Sequence record: MN158210.1
Direction: 5' to 3' (one strand)
DNA: 52,716 nucleotides
DNA from: Escherichia phage BEK12A
The position numbers and the translations under genes were made by a program. The notes under the pieces are model-generated. The model worked only from the letters and a program-made list of their open reading frames with translations, was not told the origin of the DNA and made no database searches. Numbering within the stretch: position 1 is the first letter of the stretch; the number at the start of each line of letters is the position of its first letter. Below are positions 10,318-20,927 of this stretch, piece after piece.

Positions 10318-10980
10318 ATGCACTTGCCTAATGGTTCTCAAATTTTCATCGGCGTTAATATGGGCGATCCGATTCAGGCTACGGCTATCACTAACGCTAA
10401 TGAGCCTGTATTTACAGCGACCGACACAAAAAATATCAATAAGGGTGCTTATGTTCTGATTGAAACGTCTTCGTGGGGTAAGTTGGTTAGCCGCGTGTTG
10501 CGCGTTAAGGCCGTTACAGACAATGAAAGTGTTACCCTTGAAGGTGTAGACACAACCGATCAGAGCGTGTTTCCGGCTGGTTCTAATACAGCAACCTTCC
10601 GAGAAGTAAAATCATGGGTAGAGATTCCTTGCGTACAGGATCTTGCGCAGGACGGAGGCGAGCAACAGTATTACACTTATCAGTGTTTGGCTGATGACCA
10701 GGAGCAGCAGTTACCGACCTATAAGAGCGCCGTTTCTCTTACCTACACTTTCGCGCATGAATATGATAATCCGATTTATCCGATCTTGCGCGATGCTGAG
10801 GAATCAGGCGACGTAACCGCTTTGCGTATGTATGTTCCGAAAGCTAAAGAGATGCGTTGCTGGGCTGGGGCGTTGTCTTTTAATGACATTCCACAAACCA
10901 CTATGAACGAAATCGAGACTGTTTCCCTTTCCGTATCCCTGAAAGGTCGATTTACGTTCTTATCTTCCGACATTAATTAA
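10318..10980 (+). CDS. major tail protein
   Basis: 220 aa preceded by AAGGAGGAA RBS and followed by a strong terminator; position before chaperone and tape measure. Confidence 0.6.
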   Translation: MHLPNGSQIFIGVNMGDPIQATAITNANEPVFTATDTKNINKGAYVLIETSSWGKLVSRVLRVKAVTDNESVTLEGVDTTDQSVFPAGSNTATFREVKSWVEIPCVQDLAQDGGEQQYYTYQCLADDQEQQLPTYKSAVSLTYTFAHEYDNPIYPILRDAEESGDVTALRMYVPKAKEMRCWAGALSFNDIPQTTMNEIETVSLSVSLKGRFTFLSSDIN

Positions 10981-10985
10981 AACAA

Positions 10986-11006
10986 GGGGCGTTGCGCCCC
11001 TTTTTT
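10986..11006. terminator. rho-independent terminator (hairpin flanked by T-run; also readable from the minus strand)
   Basis: GGGGCGTTGCGCCCC plus TTTTTTC. Confidence 0.6.
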
Positions 11007-11046
11007 CATTCCTGTAAAATCAATCTATCAAATAAATCAATTACAC

Positions 11047-11064
11047 TTTTAACAAAAAGTGCTA
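11047..11064 (-). promoter_or_regulatory. conserved 20-bp box, reverse orientation, directly before chaperone RBS
   Basis: TTTTAACAAAAAGTGCTA followed by CAAGGAG and ATG. Confidence 0.5.
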
Positions 11065-15031: not shown

Positions 15032-15034
15032 TTT

Positions 15035-15059
15035 AAAGCCGCCTTTGTGCGGCTTTTTT
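15035..15059 (+). terminator. rho-independent terminator
   Basis: AAAGCCGCCTTTGTGCGGCTTT plus TTTTC. Confidence 0.55.
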
Positions 15060-15093
15060 CTTGATGTTACAATGAGCAAAAAGGAGGTAGAAA

Positions 15094-15855
15094 ATGGCTA
15101 ATAAAGAATCAGGTAGAGTTGAATTTGAGAACTGCCTACAAAGTTTGTACCCAGGCGAGATTATAACGCTTGTAGAGATTGACGGGACGAAGTTCGGAGC
15201 AAATATTTACCGATTTCACAATGAGAACATCTCTTATACTGCCGAGGAATTAATGCAAGCGCAGCAAACCGGAGTATTGCCGCCGAAAGATATTATTTTC
15301 CAGGGTGAGGTTTACGGAGCGCGGCCTTTCGGTGTTAGCGGGATTAACTTCACAAGTAACGGCAGGGCAGATAAGCCTCAGCTTATGGTGTCAAACCTTG
15401 ACAGCAGGGTTAGCGCCATGATCAGAAATTACAATGGCATGATGCAAGCAAGGGTGACTTTCTGGATCACGGCAAAGGAATTTATCGGAGAAGGCGGAGC
15501 AATCAAAGATGGCGCTTACAGAAAATTGGTTTATTACATTGAGCGCCCAAGCCAGTATAATAGAGAGGTGGCGAAATTTGATCTGACATCGCCTTACGAT
15601 ATGGATGGATTAATGATCCCGCCGCGCATCACTCAAAGCGTTTGCTATTGGGCGCAAAGGGGGTGGTACAGGAGCGGAAAGGGTTGCTCTTATAACGGAT
15701 CGGCAATGTTCGATAAAGACAATAAGCCAGTAACAGATCCATCGCAAGACTATTGCGCAGGAACTGTAACGGCTTGCAAATTGAGATTCGGTCAGCAAAA
15801 CGAGTTGGATTTCGGCGGTTGCGCGGTGGCGTCACTGCTACGGAGGAATCAATAA
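15094..15855 (+). CDS. minor tail protein (lambda gpL-like)
   Basis: 253 aa; cysteine cluster near C-terminus; synteny M-L-K-I-J. Confidence 0.6.
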   Translation: MANKESGRVEFENCLQSLYPGEIITLVEIDGTKFGANIYRFHNENISYTAEELMQAQQTGVLPPKDIIFQGEVYGARPFGVSGINFTSNGRADKPQLMVSNLDSRVSAMIRNYNGMMQARVTFWITAKEFIGEGGAIKDGAYRKLVYYIERPSQYNREVAKFDLTSPYDMDGLMIPPRITQSVCYWAQRGWYRSGKGCSYNGSAMFDKDNKPVTDPSQDYCAGTVTACKLRFGQQNELDFGGCAVASLLRRNQ

Positions 15856-16586
15856 TGATTAGTGCAAAAATTAAACTTGAAATAATGCAGCACGTTAAAG
15901 AGGAATACCCTAAAGAGGCTTGCGGCGTCATAACTCAAAAGTCACGGGTACAGAAATATCACCGCATAACCAACGTGCATGACGATCCAGAAAATCATTT
16001 TGAAATGGACGCCGTAGAATACGCTGAATCGCTCGACAAAGGCGAATTAATCGCGGTGGTGCATTCCCATTGCGGTGATGGTGCTAGTACGATACCGAGC
16101 GCGCACGACTCATGTATGTGCGATGAAATGGGTGTGTCGTGGATTATAGTGTCATGGCCCGAAGGTGATATGAGAATTGTCGAGCCGCAGGAGAGGCCGC
16201 TTATCGGTCGCCCGTGGTCGCTTGGGTCGTTCGATTGCTGGGGTCTTATCATGGCGTGGCATAAACAGCACGGAGTAGTATTGAATGACTTCCGAAAGCC
16301 TTACGAGTGGTGGAAGTCAGAATATGGTGAAAATCTTTACCAGGATAATTATTTAAAAGAGGGATTTATTGAAACTAACGAGCCTCCAAAGCCTGGCGAT
16401 ATGGTTATCATGCAGCTATCATCGCCAGTCTGGAATCATGCGGGGATTTATTTGGGTAACAACCAGCTATTACATCATGCGTTTGGAAAGCTATCTCGCA
16501 TCGACTTGTATTCTGGATGGTATCAGGAGCACACTGTAAAAATTTGCCGACATAAGGATCTGAAATATGACATTGAAAGTAATTAA
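15855..16586 (+). CDS. tail assembly protein (lambda gpK-like, MPN/JAB plus NlpC/P60 peptidase)
   Basis: ATG at codon 35 of the 15753 ORF; EACGV..HSHCGDGASTIPSAHD (JAMM-like) and C/H peptidase-like residues. Confidence 0.7.
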   Translation: MISAKIKLEIMQHVKEEYPKEACGVITQKSRVQKYHRITNVHDDPENHFEMDAVEYAESLDKGELIAVVHSHCGDGASTIPSAHDSCMCDEMGVSWIIVSWPEGDMRIVEPQERPLIGRPWSLGSFDCWGLIMAWHKQHGVVLNDFRKPYEWWKSEYGENLYQDNYLKEGFIETNEPPKPGDMVIMQLSSPVWNHAGIYLGNNQLLHHAFGKLSRIDLYSGWYQEHTVKICRHKDLKYDIESN

Positions 16587-17163
16587 GCTATCTGGTTCCC
16601 TGGGTCGTAGATTTGGCGTCTTTCACAAAATGGCGGTTGACTCATACCCCGAAGCAATACGCGCGTTATCTTCCCAGGTTGAAGGGTTCAAGGACTACAT
16701 GCAAAGCGAAGTAGGATCGCGAATGAAGTATGCTGTATTCGTTGATGGAAAAAACGTTGGTCAGCATGATGAAAAATCATGGAAGTGCGCGCGAGAGGTT
16801 CGAATAGTTCCTGTTCCAACTGGTTCTAAGTCCGGCGGCCTGTTCAATGTTGTTTTTGGTGCTGTAATTATGGCTACTGCGTTCATTACTGGCGGTGCAA
16901 GCCTGGCGGCTATGGGCGCTTTTGCATCTTCCGCATTTATGATGGGTGGTGCTATCGCGCTTGGCGGTGTCATGCAAATGATCTCTCCGCAGCAGGGCGG
17001 AATGAAACTGCAAAGCCAATCAGCAGAAAACAAGCCTTCTTACGCTTTCGGCGGCGCAGTAAATACCACGGCGGCAGGTTATCCGGTTCCTTTGCCATAT
17101 GGATATAGGACAGTAGGCGGCGCGATCTGGTCGGCTGGCAGCTACGCAGAAGATAAGGCTTAA
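16567..17163 (+). CDS. tail assembly protein (lambda gpI-like)
   Basis: 198 aa with Gly/Ala-rich hydrophobic C-terminal half; synteny. Confidence 0.55.
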   Translation: MTLKVIKLSGSLGRRFGVFHKMAVDSYPEAIRALSSQVEGFKDYMQSEVGSRMKYAVFVDGKNVGQHDEKSWKCAREVRIVPVPTGSKSGGLFNVVFGAVIMATAFITGGASLAAMGAFASSAFMMGGAIALGGVMQMISPQQGGMKLQSQSAENKPSYAFGGAVNTTAAGYPVPLPYGYRTVGGAIWSAGSYAEDKA

Positions 17164-17178
17164 TTAAACTGGCGTTAA

Positions 17179-17207
17179 TTGACTTTTTATTTTAGTTGTG
17201 AATAATA
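17179..17207 (+). promoter_or_regulatory. sigma-70-like promoter (TTGACT-17-ATAATA)
   Basis: consensus-like hexamers with 17-bp spacer in the I-J intergenic gap. Confidence 0.5.
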
Positions 17208-17274
17208 CATGACACGTAGTGTTTTTGCCGAAGTACTACAGTAACATCTCAACTTAACAAATATAAATTACACA

Positions 17275-17304
17275 AAGACCGTGCATTGCACGGTCTTTTT
17301 TTTG
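17275..17304 (+). terminator. strong rho-independent terminator
   Basis: AAGACCGTGCATTGCACGGTCTT plus TTTTTTTT, only about 70 nt downstream of the promoter. Confidence 0.7.
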
Positions 17305-17348
17305 CCCGTATAATTCAACAAATCAAATAGCACAAAAGGTGAAAAAGC

Positions 17349-20300
17349 ATGGCTGAAAATATGATAACTGGCAGTAAGGGCGGAAGCAAAAAGCCATACG
17401 TGCCAAAAGAGATGGAAGATAACCTGATCTCGATAAACAAGATTAAAGTTTTGCTGGCTGTATCTGATGGCGAATGCGATCCAGATTTCACGTTGCGTGA
17501 TCTTTATCTTGATGATGTTCCGGTTATTGCCAGCGATGGCACTGTTAACTATGAGGGGGTAACGGCTGAATATAGACCAGGTACACAGACGCAAGATTAC
17601 ATCCAGGGGTTTACTGACACATCAAGCGAGGTGACAGTTTCGCGAGATATTACAGCAGACAATCCCTATATTATCTCTGTAACAAATAAAAATCTTTCTG
17701 CAATCAGAATCAAGATTCTGATGCCAGTTGGCATAAAACAGGAGGATAACGGCGATCTTGTTGGTGTAAGGGTTCAATATGCCGTAGATATGGCTGTTGA
17801 TGGCGGTTCTTATAACGAGGTTATGAGAGATGTAATTGATGGCAAGACAAGATCAGGATATGACCGCAGCAGAAGGATTGATCTTCCTAAGTTTGATGAG
17901 CGCGTTTTAATCAGGGTCAAGCGACTGACTCCAGACAGCACATCTTCAAAGGTGACTGATAAAATCAAACTGCAAAGTTACGCTGAGGTTGTGGATGCAA
18001 AATTCCGTTATCCTCTGACTGGCCTTGTATTCGTAGAATTTGACAGCGAATTGTTTCCTACGCAAATCCCTAACATTTCTATAAAAAAGAAATGGAAGAT
18101 TATTAATGTGCCAAGCAACTATGATCCAATATCTAGAGAATATCACGGGTCATGGGATGGGACTTTTAAAAAAGCGTGGTCAAATAATCCTGCTTGGGTT
18201 CTTTATGATCTGGTAACTAATCAGCGTTATGGACTTGACCAGCGAGAGTTAGGAATACAGATCGACAAGTGGAGCTTATACGAGGCTGGTGTTTACTGTG
18301 ATCAGAAAGTTCCAGACGGTAAGGGCGGTACAGAGCCTCGCTACCTATGCGATGTGGTGATCCAGAATCAGGTTGAGGCTTATCAGCTAATCCGTGACAT
18401 TTGCTCAATCTTTCGCGGAATGAGCTTTTGGAATGGAGAGAGCTTATCAATCGTAATTGATAAACCGCGCGATCCATCATACGTGTTTACTAATGAAAAC
18501 GTCATCAACGGTGATTTTCAGTACACAGCAGCAAGCGAAAAAAGCATGTACACGCAATGTAATGTGACGTTTGACGACGAACAAAACATGTATCAGCAGG
18601 ACGTAGAGGGGGTTTTTGATACTGAGGCGGCATTACGATTTGGATACAATCCAACAAGCATTACAGCGATCGGGTGTACACGCAGGAGCGAAGCGAATCG
18701 TCGCGGTCGGTGGGTTTTGAAAACAAACCTTAGAAGCACTACTGTAAACTTTGCTACCGGACTAGAGGGGATGATTCCATCCATAGGTGATGTGATTGCT
18801 ATCGCTGATAATTTTCAGAGCAGCAATCTAACGCTAAATCTTTCGGGCCGAGTAATGGAAGTTTCAGGCTTGCAAGTTTTCGTTCCGTTTAAGGTTGATG
18901 CGCGTCCTGGTGATTTTATTATCATCAACAAGCCGGACGGAAAGCCAGTTAAGCGAACGATCTCAAAGGTGAGCGCAGACGGAAAAACCATTGAGTTAAA
19001 TATTGGCTTTGGTTTTGATGTTAAGCCTGATACTGTTTTTGCGATTGACCGTACTGACCTTGCGTTGCAGCAATACGTTGTGACAACTATCAGCAAGGGT
19101 GATGACGAAAACGAGTTTACCTATTCAATCACGGCTGTAGAGTACGATCCGAACAAATACGACGAGATTGATTATGGAGTAAACATTGATGACAGGCCAA
19201 CTTCAATTGTTCAGCCTGACGTGATGGCAGCGCCTGAGAACGTGCAGATCTCTTCTTATTCTCGCGTCGTGCAGGGTGTAAGCGTTGAAACTATGGTTGT
19301 GTCGTGGGAAAAAGTGCCTTATGCATCGCTCTATGAAATGCAGTGGCGTAAAGGTGATGGAAACTGGCTGAATACACCACAGACCGCAAACAAAGAAATT
19401 GAGGTTGAAGGTATTTATTCAGGTAACTACCAAGTAAGGGTGAGATCTGTTTCTGCTTCCGGTTCTACGTCGCCGTGGTCAAAGATTGCAACCGCCACCC
19501 TGACAGGTAAAGTTGGCGAGCCAGGAGCGCCGATTAATCTTACAGCTTCTGATAATGAAGTTTTTGGCATTCGTGTCAAATGGGGTATGCCGGAAGGATC
19601 GGGCGATACGGCTTACATTGAGCTTCACCAATCGCCAGATGGGACGGTGGAAAACTCAAGTTTGCTTACGCTGATCCCGTATCCTCAATATGAGTATTGG
19701 CATAGCACGTTACCAGCGGGTCAAGTTGTATGGTATAGAATCCGTAGCGTTGACAGGATCGGCAACGTTTCCGGCTGGACTGACTTTGTTCGCGGCATGG
19801 CGTCAGATGATGTTGAATCTGTTTTAGGCGACATTCTGGACAAGATTTTTGATACCGAAGCGGGTCAAGAAATCAAAGAGAACGCCATAGACAGTGCAAA
19901 CAAAATCAAAGACCAGGCGCAATCAATCATCCAGAACGCATTGGCAAACGATGCCGATGTGAAGTGGACGCGAGTACAAAACGGAAAGCGTAAGGCTGAA
20001 TATGGTCATGCACTGGAGCTTATTGCTAACGAAACGGAGGCGCGAGTAACTCAAATCGAAGAGTTAAAGGCGTCAATTGATGAAGATATAGTTTCAAGTA
20101 TCAAAACCGTTCAGGAAGCGATTGCCAATGAATCAGAGACGCGAGCTACTCAAGTTCAGCAGCTTGATTCTAAATTTACGAAGGAAATAGACGGCGTAAA
20201 ACGAGATACGGCTGCAAGCATTGGCGAGGTAAGGCAAACCATTACCAATGAATCAGAAGCGCGTGCTCAAGCCGTTCAGCAGCTTGACGCTAAGTTCACG

Positions 20301-20927
20301 AAAGAGATAAACGACCTTGACGGAGTTATCAAAACAGAAGTCGAGGCTAACATCTCAGAAGTGAAACAGGCGATCGCCAATGAGACAGAGGCAAGGGTTC
20401 AGGCTGACCAGGCTTTAACAGCTAAATTCGGAGATGTTGAATCAGCACTAGCCGAAAAACTTGATTCGTGGGCTAACGTTAATTCTGTTGGCGCTAAGTA
20501 CTCTATGAAATTGGGCCTTACTTACAATGGTCAGAAGTACAGCGCAGGAATGATCATGCAGTTGTCGCAATCTTCTCAAGGCTTGATCTCGCAAATCTTG
20601 TTTGATGCTAACAGGTTCGCGATCATGACTAGCTCTACTGGCGGAACGTTTACTTTGCCTTTCGTTGTTGAAAACAACCAGGTTTTCATTAACAGCCTGC
20701 TAGTTAAAAACGGTTCAATTACAAATGCCATGATCGGTAATTATATTCAGTCGAATAACTTTGTTGCCAATCAGCAGGGTTGGAGGCTGGATAAAAACGG
20801 CAGATTTGAGAACTACGGAACTAGAGCGGGAGAAGGAGCTACAAAATTCACTAACGAAGGCTTAAAGGTGAAAGATGCAAATGGACGATTGAGAGTTGAG
20901 ATAGGGAGAATAACCGGAAGTTGGTAA
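17349..20927 (+). CDS. tail tip / central tail fiber protein (lambda gpJ-like host specificity protein)
   Basis: 1192 aa; follows M-L-K-I block; C-terminal coiled-coil repeats (NESEARA..VQQLD.KFTKEI repeated). Confidence 0.8.
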   Translation: MAENMITGSKGGSKKPYVPKEMEDNLISINKIKVLLAVSDGECDPDFTLRDLYLDDVPVIASDGTVNYEGVTAEYRPGTQTQDYIQGFTDTSSEVTVSRDITADNPYIISVTNKNLSAIRIKILMPVGIKQEDNGDLVGVRVQYAVDMAVDGGSYNEVMRDVIDGKTRSGYDRSRRIDLPKFDERVLIRVKRLTPDSTSSKVTDKIKLQSYAEVVDAKFRYPLTGLVFVEFDSELFPTQIPNISIKKKWKIINVPSNYDPISREYHGSWDGTFKKAWSNNPAWVLYDLVTNQRYGLDQRELGIQIDKWSLYEAGVYCDQKVPDGKGGTEPRYLCDVVIQNQVEAYQLIRDICSIFRGMSFWNGESLSIVIDKPRDPSYVFTNENVINGDFQYTAASEKSMYTQCNVTFDDEQNMYQQDVEGVFDTEAALRFGYNPTSITAIGCTRRSEANRRGRWVLKTNLRSTTVNFATGLEGMIPSIGDVIAIADNFQSSNLTLNLSGRVMEVSGLQVFVPFKVDARPGDFIIINKPDGKPVKRTISKVSADGKTIELNIGFGFDVKPDTVFAIDRTDLALQQYVVTTISKGDDENEFTYSITAVEYDPNKYDEIDYGVNIDDRPTSIVQPDVMAAPENVQISSYSRVVQGVSVETMVVSWEKVPYASLYEMQWRKGDGNWLNTPQTANKEIEVEGIYSGNYQVRVRSVSASGSTSPWSKIATATLTGKVGEPGAPINLTASDNEVFGIRVKWGMPEGSGDTAYIELHQSPDGTVENSSLLTLIPYPQYEYWHSTLPAGQVVWYRIRSVDRIGNVSGWTDFVRGMASDDVESVLGDILDKIFDTEAGQEIKENAIDSANKIKDQAQSIIQNALANDADVKWTRVQNGKRKAEYGHALELIANETEARVTQIEELKASIDEDIVSSIKTVQEAIANESETRATQVQQLDSKFTKEIDGVKRDTAASIGEVRQTITNESEARAQAVQQLDAKFTKEINDLDGVIKTEVEANISEVKQAIANETEARVQADQALTAKFGDVESALAEKLDSWANVNSVGAKYSMKLGLTYNGQKYSAGMIMQLSQSSQGLISQILFDANRFAIMTSSTGGTFTLPFVVENNQVFINSLLVKNGSITNAMIGNYIQSNNFVANQQGWRLDKNGRFENYGTRAGEGATKFTNEGLKVKDANGRLRVEIGRITGSW

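What the first reader, a model, noticed from the sequence alone, without database searches (positions are those of the whole stretch)
17164..17348. Promoter-terminator pair inside the I-J intergenic gap: candidate small RNA or attenuator upstream of the tail-tip gene
Lambda-like tail genes are usually tightly coupled, but here a 185-bp gap precedes J. It contains TTGACT-17-ATAATA, then about 70 nt later a strong terminator (AAGACCGTGCATTGCACGGTCTT plus T8), then a second -10-like TATAAT before the J RBS. A transcript starting at the first promoter would end at the terminator as a roughly 80-90 nt RNA. Alternatively the terminator attenuates read-through into J.
Basis: seen in the sequence. Interest (0 to 1): 0.5.

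Follow-up and report, generated by a model that had tools for sequence, protein, structure and literature searches.

The report
Terminator–promoter junction plus orphan insertion
The gap before the tail-tip gene of coliphage BEK26 is the usual T1-family terminator-plus-promoter boundary, lengthened by about 105 bases of non-coding DNA found in no other sequenced phage; that extra DNA might make a short RNA, but nothing shows that it has a function.

Summary
The window is Escherichia phage BEK26 (Drexlerviridae, Warwickvirus). The sequence features are there as described: a 185-nt I–J gap, TTGACT-N16-AATAAT, an 11-bp hairpin with T8, and a second TATAAT.

The right-hand ~78 nt is a family-wide module, present in every relative examined:
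- It comprises hairpin, T-run, TATAAT and ATAGCACAAAAGGTGAAAA/RBS.
- Relatives have 74–83-nt gaps, and the 34 unique spacers carry 20 different stems.
- TTG sits in the hairpin loop exactly 17 nt before the -10 in 30 of 34.
- The design recurs at two other tail-gene junctions in BEK26.
- Its terminator and repeat are already listed for phage TLS.

So J is a separate transcription unit, with a terminator overlapped by its own promoter.

The left ~105–115 nt, which holds the first "promoter", is private to BEK26:
- There is no match in phage, IMG/VR, metagenome, GTDB or E. coli collections, apart from a 33-nt piece shared with four small plasmids.
- It lies where relatives carry HNH homing-endonuclease genes.
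- Its promoter-like site arises in 5% of shuffles.
- Its 5' part folds no better than chance.
- No antiterminator pairing and no phage target stand out.

The small-RNA reading is therefore possible but unsupported, and the attenuator reading is not supported. Interest is low.

The parts
16567..17163 (+). Tail assembly gene (lambda I-like), 198 aa. Its stop codon TAA is at 17161-17163.
   Evidence: ORF list. Annotated as 'tail assembly protein' QGH77562.1 in MN158216.1.
17165..17279 (.). BEK26-private non-coding segment. It is a net ~105 nt longer than the Hanrivervirus G29-2 spacer and about 71% A+T. It lies between the I stop codon and the core of the terminator.
   Evidence: No alignment to G29-2 or tonijn. 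No blastn hit covering more than 25% in 50,697 phage records. No exact 21-29-mers in IMG/VR, metagenomes or GTDB genomes. The one metagenome hit is a copy of the plasmid. Composition. No ORF of 30 aa or more on the + strand; the only one overlapping the segment is a mechanical minus-strand ORF (17268-17594) that lies mostly antisense to J.
17179..17206 (+). Sigma-70 promoter-like site 'Px': TTGACT (17179-17184), 16-nt spacer, AATAAT (17201-17206). The predicted start is near 17212-17214.
   Evidence: Consensus scan, 10/12. Chance of such a site in shuffles of the insert is 5.2%. It is absent from all relatives.
17216..17239 (+). Predicted weak 5' stem-loop of the hypothetical RNA: 10 pairs, three of them G-U, with loop UGCC.
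   Evidence: Fold. The 5' part alone gives -6.3 kcal/mol and z = -0.23, no better than shuffles.
17227..17259 (+). 33-nt piece that matches 32/33 with four small ColE1-type plasmids (for example pAMA1167-3). In the plasmids it is the complement of the stop codon and 3' UTR of a 23-aa hydrophobic ORF.
   Evidence: blastn against E. coli genomes and PLSDB, E = 2e-5 to 9e-5. Plasmid sequence, ORF and terminator.
17274..17303 (+). Intrinsic terminator after gene I: an 11-bp stem, loop ATT, and a T8 run.
   Evidence: Scan; -16.6 kcal/mol. A homologous hairpin plus T-run is found in all 34 unique spacers of relatives, with 20 different stems. Covariation score is 0.168 against 0.066 shuffled, 0/500. 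Annotated as a terminator in phages Sip and G29-2 and as T49 in TLS.
17286..17314 (+). Promoter for J embedded in the terminator: -35 TTGCAC (17286-17291, loop and 3' arm), 17-nt spacer, -10 TATAAT (17309-17314). The predicted start is near 17321.
   Evidence: TTGnnn lies exactly 17 nt before TATAAT/TACAAT in 30 of 34 unique spacers. The middle T of TTG and four -10 positions are invariant. The same pattern is at 10992-11020 and 15045-15073: 3 matches against 0.55 expected.
17325..17345 (+). 'A-type' copy of the T1-family 21-nt direct repeat (aaATAGCACAAAAGGTGAAAA). It contains J's Shine-Dalgarno AAGGTG (17336-17341).
   Evidence: Pattern search, 23 matches against 6.6 expected in the window. 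The TLS paper lists DR8 'aaatagcacaaaagggttaaaa' at the homologous place.
17349..20927 (+). Tail-tip / host-specificity gene (lambda J-like), 1192 aa.
   Evidence: ORF list. Annotation in BEK26 and relatives.
15032..15096 (+). Paralogous terminator-embedded promoter junction before the minor tail gene at 15094.
   Evidence: Covariance model built from the I-J spacers scores 35.1 bits, E = 9e-6. TTGTGC-N17-TACAAT.
10979..11048 (+). Second paralogous terminator-embedded promoter junction, before the gene at 11059.
   Evidence: Covariance model scores 21.5 bits, E = 0.009. TTGCGC-N17-TAAAAT.

Best explanation
The gap has two parts of different age.

**Right part, 17274-17348.** This is the ordinary I-J boundary of T1-like phages.
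- An intrinsic terminator ends the tail-assembly transcript.
- A sigma-70 promoter has its -35 (TTGCAC) inside the terminator's loop and 3' arm, and its -10 (TATAAT) 17 nt downstream. It restarts transcription about 28 nt before the J start codon.
- That short leader is a copy of the family's ATAGCAC...AAAA repeat and carries J's ribosome-binding site.

**Left part, about 17165-17279.** This is a non-coding insertion or replacement found only in BEK26.
- It came in with a ~215-nt recombination patch whose edges are Hanrivervirus-like, inside an otherwise tonijn-like genome.
- It lies at the spot where relatives carry homing-endonuclease genes.
- I infer that it is a recombination scar or the remnant of a lost cassette.
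- Its promoter-like site may fire and give a transcript of about 90 nt ending at the terminator. Such an RNA would be a by-product rather than a conserved regulator.

**Shown versus inferred.** The anatomy, the conservation and the uniqueness of the insertion are shown. Terminator and promoter activity, and the lack of function of the insertion, are inferred.
For: **A short spacer of this design is universal.**
- 74-83 nt in nearly all of the 52 other related loci, down to 41% identity of protein I; the five longer ones carry an HNH gene, its remnant, or a doubtful J start.
- Every one of 34 unique spacers folds into a GC hairpin followed by a T-run. There are 20 distinct stems.
- On a model-fitted alignment, 4 of 6 pairs show double changes. 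The covariation score exceeds all 500 shuffles and all slid controls.

**The promoter reading is supported by conservation.**
- TTG sits 17 nt upstream of TATAAT/TACAAT in 30 of 34 spacers, while the stems vary.
- The same design occurs at three tail-module junctions in BEK26.

**Published support.**
- TLS Table S1 lists T49 and DR8 at the homologous place.

**The left part is private to BEK26.**

**The patch is mosaic.** 17296-17369 is identical to Hanrivervirus G29-2, while the bodies of I and J follow tonijn.

**The site is an insertion hot spot.** Two unrelated HNH_3 genes, in opposite orientations, and one deletion remnant occupy it in relatives.

**The insert shows no sign of function.**
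- No structure beyond chance.
- No antiterminator pairing.
- No outstanding phage target.
- No Rfam family.
Against: - The Px site is a good sigma-70 match (10/12). It points towards a strong terminator 70 nt away, which is the layout of a small-RNA gene.
- A 5% chance value is suggestive, and the three G-U pairs make the 5' hairpin specific to the + strand.
- No similarity to any homing-endonuclease cassette was found, so the 'remnant' origin is only an inference from position.
- The 33-nt plasmid match shows that part of the insert has a real relative elsewhere whose role is unknown.
- Promoter and terminator activities were not measured. No transcript map of any Drexlerviridae phage was found in the paper library.
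Confidence: 0.6

Rival explanations
1. The insertion is a true strain-specific small-RNA gene of the moron type. Px starts a ~90-nt RNA (17213-17303) with a 5' hairpin, a 34-nt A/U-rich single strand and a terminator with a U8 tail. This RNA would act in trans, probably with Hfq, on host or phage mRNAs.
For: - 10/12 promoter match in an intergenic, A+T-rich segment.
- The predicted shape is typical of enterobacterial Hfq-binding sRNAs.
- The 5' hairpin relies on G-U pairs, so it forms only on the + strand.
- The segment holds no ORF on the + strand.
Against: - It is found in one genome only, so there is no conservation or covariation.
- The 5' part folds no better than shuffles, z = -0.23.
- The best duplex with phage translation-start regions is equalled by 53% of shuffled RNAs.
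- No antisense match of about 20 nt or more in 5,426 E. coli genomes, except the plasmid piece.
- The terminator and its U-tail belong to the ancestral junction, so they are not evidence for an RNA gene.
Confidence: 0.2
2. The gap is a regulatory leader or attenuator. Read-through of the terminator into J would be controlled by alternative RNA structures, or by translation of a short leader ORF in the insertion.
For: - Weak Rfam matches to Leu_leader (30.7 bits) and Trp_leader (20.5 bits) across 17185-17303.
- An 11-codon ORF (ATG at 17209) lies upstream of the terminator.
Against: - Both matches are below the gathering scores. The Leu_leader alignment shows that the match is carried by the terminator hairpin.
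- The upstream gap sequence forms no pairing with the terminator's 5' arm beyond chance.
- The small ORF has no ribosome-binding site, no run of regulatory codons, and starts at or before the predicted transcript start.
- A conserved promoter lies downstream of the terminator.
- Relatives lack the whole left part yet keep the terminator.
Confidence: 0.05
3. The insertion encodes an antisense RNA directed against a plasmid-borne small hydrophobic-peptide (toxin-like) mRNA. The + strand RNA is 32/33 complementary to that mRNA's stop codon and 3' UTR. It would act as an antitoxin mimic when the phage infects plasmid-carrying hosts.
For: - 33-nt match, E = 2e-5 to 9e-5, to four ColE1-type plasmids of E. 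coli, Enterobacter and Citrobacter.
- In the plasmids it lies on the strand opposite a Shine-Dalgarno-led 23-aa hydrophobic ORF and its terminator.
- The matching piece sits in the part of the putative phage RNA predicted to be mostly single-stranded.
Against: - The plasmid ORF matches no known toxin family, and toxicity is unknown.
- The plasmids are rare: 4 in 72,556.
- The recorded host of BEK26 is the laboratory strain K514.
- The match may simply mark the source of a piece of captured DNA.
- There is no evidence that Px is active.
Confidence: 0.04
4. The extra ~105 nt is an assembly or chimera artefact in the BEK26 record, not part of the phage genome.
For: - It is unique to one record.
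- It sits inside a very short patch from another genus.
Against: - The insert matches no other phage that could have contaminated the sample.
- The hairpin arms on both sides of the junction are mutually complementary, as expected of real, selected sequence.
- The reads are not available, so this cannot be tested here.
Confidence: 0.03

Closest known systems
T1/TLS 'transcripton' boundaries: the rho-independent terminator T49 and direct repeat DR8 between gp49 and gp50 of phage TLS (PMC11447400, Table S1)
   Same: - Homologous position (I-J), with a hairpin of the same type holding TTGCGC in its loop and 3' arm.
- The same T-run and the same aaATAGCACAAAAGG(T)TAAAA element just before the J start.
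- Terminators at this spot are also annotated in phages Sip and G29-2.
   Different: - BEK26's stem sequence is unique (ACCGTGC/GCACGGT) and longer, at 11 bp.
- The TLS authors did not call a promoter here.
- BEK26 carries an extra ~105 nt upstream of the terminator.
Free-standing HNH homing-endonuclease insertions between I and J in Warwickvirus relatives (atuna, mar001J1, JLBYU10, and the remnant in tonn)
   Same: - The same insertion point, between the I stop codon and the terminator.
- Presence or absence varies among near-identical genomes.
- A short co-converted mosaic patch is expected around such sites.
   Different: The BEK26 insert has no ORF and no detectable similarity to these cassettes.
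Phage morons (a promoter-gene-terminator unit inserted between conserved late genes) and short promoter-proximal phage RNAs such as lambda OOP or StxS. The comparison rests on my own knowledge and was not tested here.
   Same: A promoter-like site and a terminator bracket a short segment inserted between two conserved tail genes.
   Different: - No gene lies inside the segment.
- The terminator is the resident one.
- There is no expression data and no conservation.
Lambda I-J intergenic region
   Same: A 60-nt gap holding a GC hairpin (ACCGCC/GGCGGT) followed by TTTT.
   Different: No TATAAT follows the hairpin in lambda. From my own knowledge, lambda late transcription is read-through from pR' under Q antitermination.

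Membership tests
Intrinsic (Rho-independent) terminator | GC-rich hairpin immediately followed by a U/T tract, on the coding strand downstream of a gene | tested here: met
   11-bp stem with 6 G-C pairs, a 3-nt loop and T8, 111 nt after the I stop codon; -16.6 kcal/mol.
Intrinsic (Rho-independent) terminator | Structure kept in relatives through compensatory changes | tested here: met
   20 distinct stems in 34 unique spacers, and all fold. 4 of 6 pairs show double changes. Covariation score is 0.168 against 0.066, 0/500 shuffles. RNAalifold on the plain sequence alignment found no consensus because the loop register differs between lineages.
Intrinsic (Rho-independent) terminator | Transcripts end at the U tract | not testable with these tools
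   Needs 3'-end mapping or a read-through reporter.
Sigma-70 promoter (J promoter, 17286-17314) | -35 and -10 hexamers with a 16-18 nt spacer | tested here: met
   TTGCAC-N17-TATAAT, 9/12 (pattern search).
Sigma-70 promoter (J promoter, 17286-17314) | Hexamers and spacing conserved in relatives | tested here: met
   30 of 34 spacers have TTGnnn exactly 17 nt before TATAAT/TACAAT. The key positions are invariant while neighbouring positions vary.
Sigma-70 promoter (J promoter, 17286-17314) | A mapped transcription start | not testable with these tools
   No transcript map for Drexlerviridae was found in the library.
Sigma-70 promoter (Px, 17179-17206) | -35 and -10 hexamers with a 16-18 nt spacer | tested here: inconclusive
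   TTGACT-N16-AATAAT, 10/12. However, 5.2% of shuffles of the insert give as good a site, and there are 21 such sites in the genome.
Sigma-70 promoter (Px, 17179-17206) | Conserved in relatives | tested here: not met
   The whole segment is absent from every other phage and contig searched.
Trans-acting Hfq-type small RNA | Own promoter, intrinsic terminator with a long U tail, and an A/U-rich single strand | tested here: inconclusive
   The shape is present in the prediction. But the terminator is ancestral, and the 5' part folds no better than chance.
Trans-acting Hfq-type small RNA | Conservation, or a seed with complementary targets | tested here: not met
   No homologue exists. No outstanding duplex with phage translation-start regions. 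Short host targets could not be searched.
Trans-acting Hfq-type small RNA | A discrete transcript that binds Hfq | not testable with these tools
   Needs a Northern blot, RNA-seq, or RIP/RIL-seq.
Transcription attenuator / leader (Leu or Trp leader type) | Leader peptide with regulatory codons, and mutually exclusive antiterminator and terminator hairpins | tested here: not met
   Rfam scores are 30.7 and 20.5 bits, below the cut-offs of 50 and 41, and the Leu_leader match is carried by the terminator hairpin. No antiterminator pairing beyond chance. The 11-codon ORF has no RBS.
T1-family 21-nt direct repeat (aaATAGCACnnnTTGnTAAAA) | Sequence match, orientation with transcription, intergenic position | tested here: met
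   17325-17345 aaATAGCACAAAAGGTGAAAA. There are 23 pattern matches against 6.6 expected in the window. TLS DR8 is the homologue.
Homing-endonuclease cassette remnant | Residual similarity to an endonuclease gene or its flanks | tested here: not met
   No blastn similarity to any phage record. Only the insertion site is shared.

The most novel reading that the evidence does not exclude
The BEK26-private insertion is a horizontally acquired small-RNA gene. Its central 33 nt are antisense (32/33) to the stop codon and 3' UTR of a small hydrophobic-peptide mRNA on ColE1-type plasmids. On this reading, a virulent T1-like phage carries an antitoxin-like antisense RNA that neutralises a plasmid-borne type I toxin-like module. 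It uses the resident I-J terminator as its 3' end.
Probability: 0.04. Interest if true: 0.6.

Novelty: new member of a known kind. Interest (0 to 1): 0.22.

Why it matters
- **Annotation.** In T1-like phages the tail-tip gene J is its own transcription unit. A terminator and a promoter share the same 40 bases, and the design recurs three times in the tail module. This supports the old T1 'transcripton' idea, which the TLS re-annotation left open.
- **The BEK26 extra DNA.** It marks the I-J spacer as a hot spot where foreign DNA, including homing endonucleases, enters and leaves.
- **If the insert makes an RNA.** It would be a rare example of a strain-specific non-coding moron in a virulent phage, but nothing yet points to a function.
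- **For genome scans.** A promoter-like hexamer pair next to a terminator is weak evidence for a small-RNA gene when the terminator is an ancestral feature of the locus.

Tried and rejected
- **Rfam.** Nothing reaches gathering scores anywhere in the window. The Leu_leader, Trp_leader, SorY and MicC matches below threshold look like terminator and low-complexity look-alikes; the printed Leu_leader and MicC alignments are carried by the terminator hairpin.
- **tRNA or tmRNA.** None found.
- **Homologues of the insert.**
  - blastn 'distant' against phages, E. coli genomes and plasmids.
  - Exact 21-29-mers in IMG/VR, three patterns.
  - Metagenomes, two patterns; the only hit is a copy of the plasmid.
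  - GTDB genomes, two patterns.
- **Copies inside the genome.** Only chance-level 10-15-mers.
- **Coding potential.** No ORF of 30 aa or more on the + strand within the gap. The micro-ORFs lack a ribosome-binding site.
- **Phage self-targets of the putative RNA.** Not better than shuffled RNAs.
- **Antiterminator pairing.** Not better than shuffles.
- **RNAalifold on the sequence alignment.** It gave no consensus because of loop-register differences. This was solved with a covariance-model alignment.
- **The plasmid peptide.** No hit in Pfam or NCBIfam.
- **Literature.** Nothing on BEK26 or on Drexlerviridae transcript maps.
- **Terminal repeats of a mobile element.** I looked by eye for terminal inverted repeats or a target-site duplication around the insert. 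There is only a 5-nt CTTAA repeat and a weak TTAAnnTG end similarity, too little to call a mobile element.

Full report
**Identity and anatomy**

The window is the complete genome of Escherichia phage BEK26 (MN158216.1; Drexlerviridae, Tempevirinae, Warwickvirus), rotated relative to the GenBank record. The lambda I-like tail assembly gene ends at 17163. The J-like tail-tip gene starts at 17349. The gap is therefore 185 nt.

- TTGACT at 17179-17184, then AATAAT at 17201-17206 after a 16-nt spacer (10/12).
- An 11-bp hairpin at 17274-17298 with loop ATT, followed by eight T.
- TATAAT at 17309-17314.

The hairpin is the best terminator-like site in 12 kb. Promoter-like sites as a class are no more frequent there than in shuffles, 18 against 21.6.

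**The right-hand 78 nt is a family-wide module**

I collected the I-J spacer from GenBank relatives and from 44 IMG/VR contigs that encode a relative of protein I, down to 41% identity. The spacer is 74-83 nt in almost all of them.

The exceptions are:
- BEK26, at 185 nt.
- Phages with an HNH endonuclease gene in the spacer (615 and 563 nt).
- A deletion remnant of such a gene (292 nt).
- One contig with a doubtful J start (109 nt).

All 34 unique spacers have the same order of parts: GC hairpin, T-run, TATAAT (26), TACAAT (6) or TATACT (2), then ATAGCACAAAAGGTTAAAA and the start codon.

The hairpins use 20 different stems, and each folds at -10.9 to -16.9 kcal/mol. A plain sequence alignment gives no RNAalifold consensus, because loop length differs between lineages. 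I therefore fitted the sequences to a covariance model. On that alignment:
- 4 of 6 pairs show changes on both sides.
- The covariation score is 0.168 against 0.066 in shuffles (0 of 500 reach it).
- All slid controls score lower.

The alignment is fitted to the structure, so these numbers lean in its favour. The list of individually folding stems is the independent support. The terminator is annotated at this spot in phages Sip and G29-2. It is listed as T49 in the TLS re-annotation, with DR8 'aaatagcacaaaagggttaaaa' just before gp50.

**A promoter is embedded in the terminator**

- While the stems vary, the TTG in the hairpin loop does not. Its middle T is invariant, and its neighbours are at least 90% conserved.
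- TTGnnn lies exactly 17 nt upstream of the -10 hexamer in 30 of 34 unique spacers.
- In BEK26 this reads TTGCAC (17286-17291), N17, TATAAT (17309-17314).
- The same pattern, TTGYRS-N17-TAnAAT inside a terminator hairpin, occurs at exactly three places in the genome. All three are + strand spacers of the tail module: 10992, 15045 and 17286. Expectation is 0.55, and 1 of 100 shuffles reaches 3.
- The covariance model built from I-J spacers also finds the other two junctions, at 35.1 and 21.5 bits.

[quoted passage not shown] The TLS authors themselves left that question open.

My inference is that the host polymerase terminates after I and re-initiates near 17321. The J mRNA then has a leader of about 28 nt that is the A-type copy of the family repeat and holds the Shine-Dalgarno AAGGTG. 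Activity was not measured, and I found no transcript map for this family.

**The premise of tight coupling does not hold**

A gap with a hairpin before J is the norm here. Lambda itself has a 60-nt I-J gap with ACCGCC-TGCG-GGCGGT followed by TTTT.

**The left-hand ~105-115 nt is private to BEK26**

- blastn at low stringency finds nothing covering more than 25% of 17160-17285 in 50,697 phage records.
- Exact searches with five different 21-29-mers find nothing in IMG/VR, JGI metagenomes or GTDB genomes.
- The only relative is a 33-nt piece (17227-17259, 32/33) in four small ColE1-type plasmids and one metagenomic copy of them.

Alignment with Hanrivervirus G29-2 shows that 17296-17369 is identical to that genus, and that the last bases of gene I are also G29-2-like. 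The bodies of I and J follow the Warwickvirus tonijn. BEK26 thus carries a ~215-nt mosaic patch. Inside it, about 115 nt (17165-17279) replace about 10 nt of the G29-2 spacer. The hairpin's two arms have changed together relative to G29-2.

The insertion point is the one used in relatives by two unrelated HNH_3 genes in opposite orientations, and by a decayed copy.

**Tests of the small-RNA and attenuator ideas**

| Test | Result |
|---|---|
| Fold of RNA from ~17213 to 17303 (5' hairpin, 34-nt A/U-rich strand, terminator) | z = -3.2 |
| Fold of the 5' 61 nt alone | -6.3 kcal/mol, z = -0.23 |
| A 10/12 promoter-like site in dinucleotide shuffles of the insert | 5.2% of shuffles |
| Best duplex between the RNA body and phage translation-start regions | matched by 53% of shuffled RNAs |
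| Rfam across the window | nothing at gathering score |
| Rfam Leu_leader match | 30.7 bits (cut-off 50), due to the terminator hairpin |
| Pairing of the upstream gap sequence with the terminator's 5' arm | best duplex -6.2 kcal/mol, matched by 38% of shuffles |

The fold significance therefore comes from the terminator. There is no ORF of 30 aa or more on the + strand, and the 11-codon ORF at 17209 has no ribosome-binding site. Host targets with short seeds could not be searched.

The small-RNA reading is therefore not excluded, but it has no support beyond the hexamers and the layout. The attenuator reading is not supported.

**The plasmid piece**

In the plasmids the 33 nt lie on the strand opposite a Shine-Dalgarno-led 23-aa hydrophobic ORF (MLEDYLQALIALLTLLSIILKYC). 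They cover its stop codon and 3' UTR, just before its terminator. A + strand RNA from BEK26 would therefore be antisense to that mRNA. The peptide matches no Pfam or NCBIfam family. This is the basis of the most novel reading I cannot exclude. A simpler view is that the piece marks the source of some captured DNA.

**Verdict**

- Most of what was seen is an ordinary feature of T1-like phages whose terminator and repeat are already described: a terminator overlapped by the J promoter.
- The unusual part is a unique non-coding insertion at a known insertion hot spot.
- I rate the scar or remnant reading at about 0.6, a true strain-specific small RNA at about 0.2, and the other readings at 0.05 or less each.
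- Interest is low. The modest gain is comparative support for terminator-embedded promoters at three tail-gene junctions.

Noticed in passing
window, about 16 sites, e.g. 31404, 32915, 39325(-), 44948, 45942, 49298, 50592: The repeat ATAGCACTTTTTGTTAAAA (the TLS 'DR', function unknown) is followed 18-19 nt after TTAAAA by a -10-like hexamer (TATAAT, CATAAT, TACATT and similar). There is often a GC hairpin in between. It looks like the -35/UP half of a phage promoter class used in the early and replication half of the genome.
   Followed up: partly
window 10979-11048 and 15032-15096: Two more tail-module junctions have the same design as the I-J spacer. A terminator hairpin holds TTGCGC or TTGTGC in its loop and 3' arm, 17 nt before TAAAAT or TACAAT. 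They are homologues of TLS T42 and T46.
   Followed up: yes
L003 1223-1699 (+), L032 2106-2609 (-), L004 1165-1456: The I-J spacer of relatives holds two unrelated HNH_3 homing-endonuclease genes in opposite orientations, and an internally deleted remnant in phage tonn. The site is an insertion hot spot.
   Followed up: yes
L010 (plasmid pAMA1167-3) 1053-1200, minus strand: There is a Shine-Dalgarno-led 23-aa hydrophobic ORF with a strong terminator. Its 3' UTR motif CTGTAGT is complementary to ACTACAG just upstream of the Shine-Dalgarno sequence, which resembles a hok-like fold-back. It is a possible unannotated type I toxin-like module, with no family match.
   Followed up: partly
window 17153-17370: A ~215-nt patch has Hanrivervirus-type edges (identical to G29-2 over 17296-17369) inside an otherwise tonijn-like Warwickvirus genome. 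This is very short-tract mosaicism, exactly at a gene boundary.
   Followed up: yes
L057 (lambda) 1446-1505: Lambda's 60-nt I-J gap contains a GC hairpin followed by TTTT, with no obvious -10 after it.
   Followed up: no
L016 2097-2206: One Hanrivervirus-like IMG/VR contig has the T-run shortened by four T, which breaks the 17-nt promoter spacing. It also has a different sequence at the J start. This may be a sequencing error in a homopolymer or a real variant.
   Followed up: no
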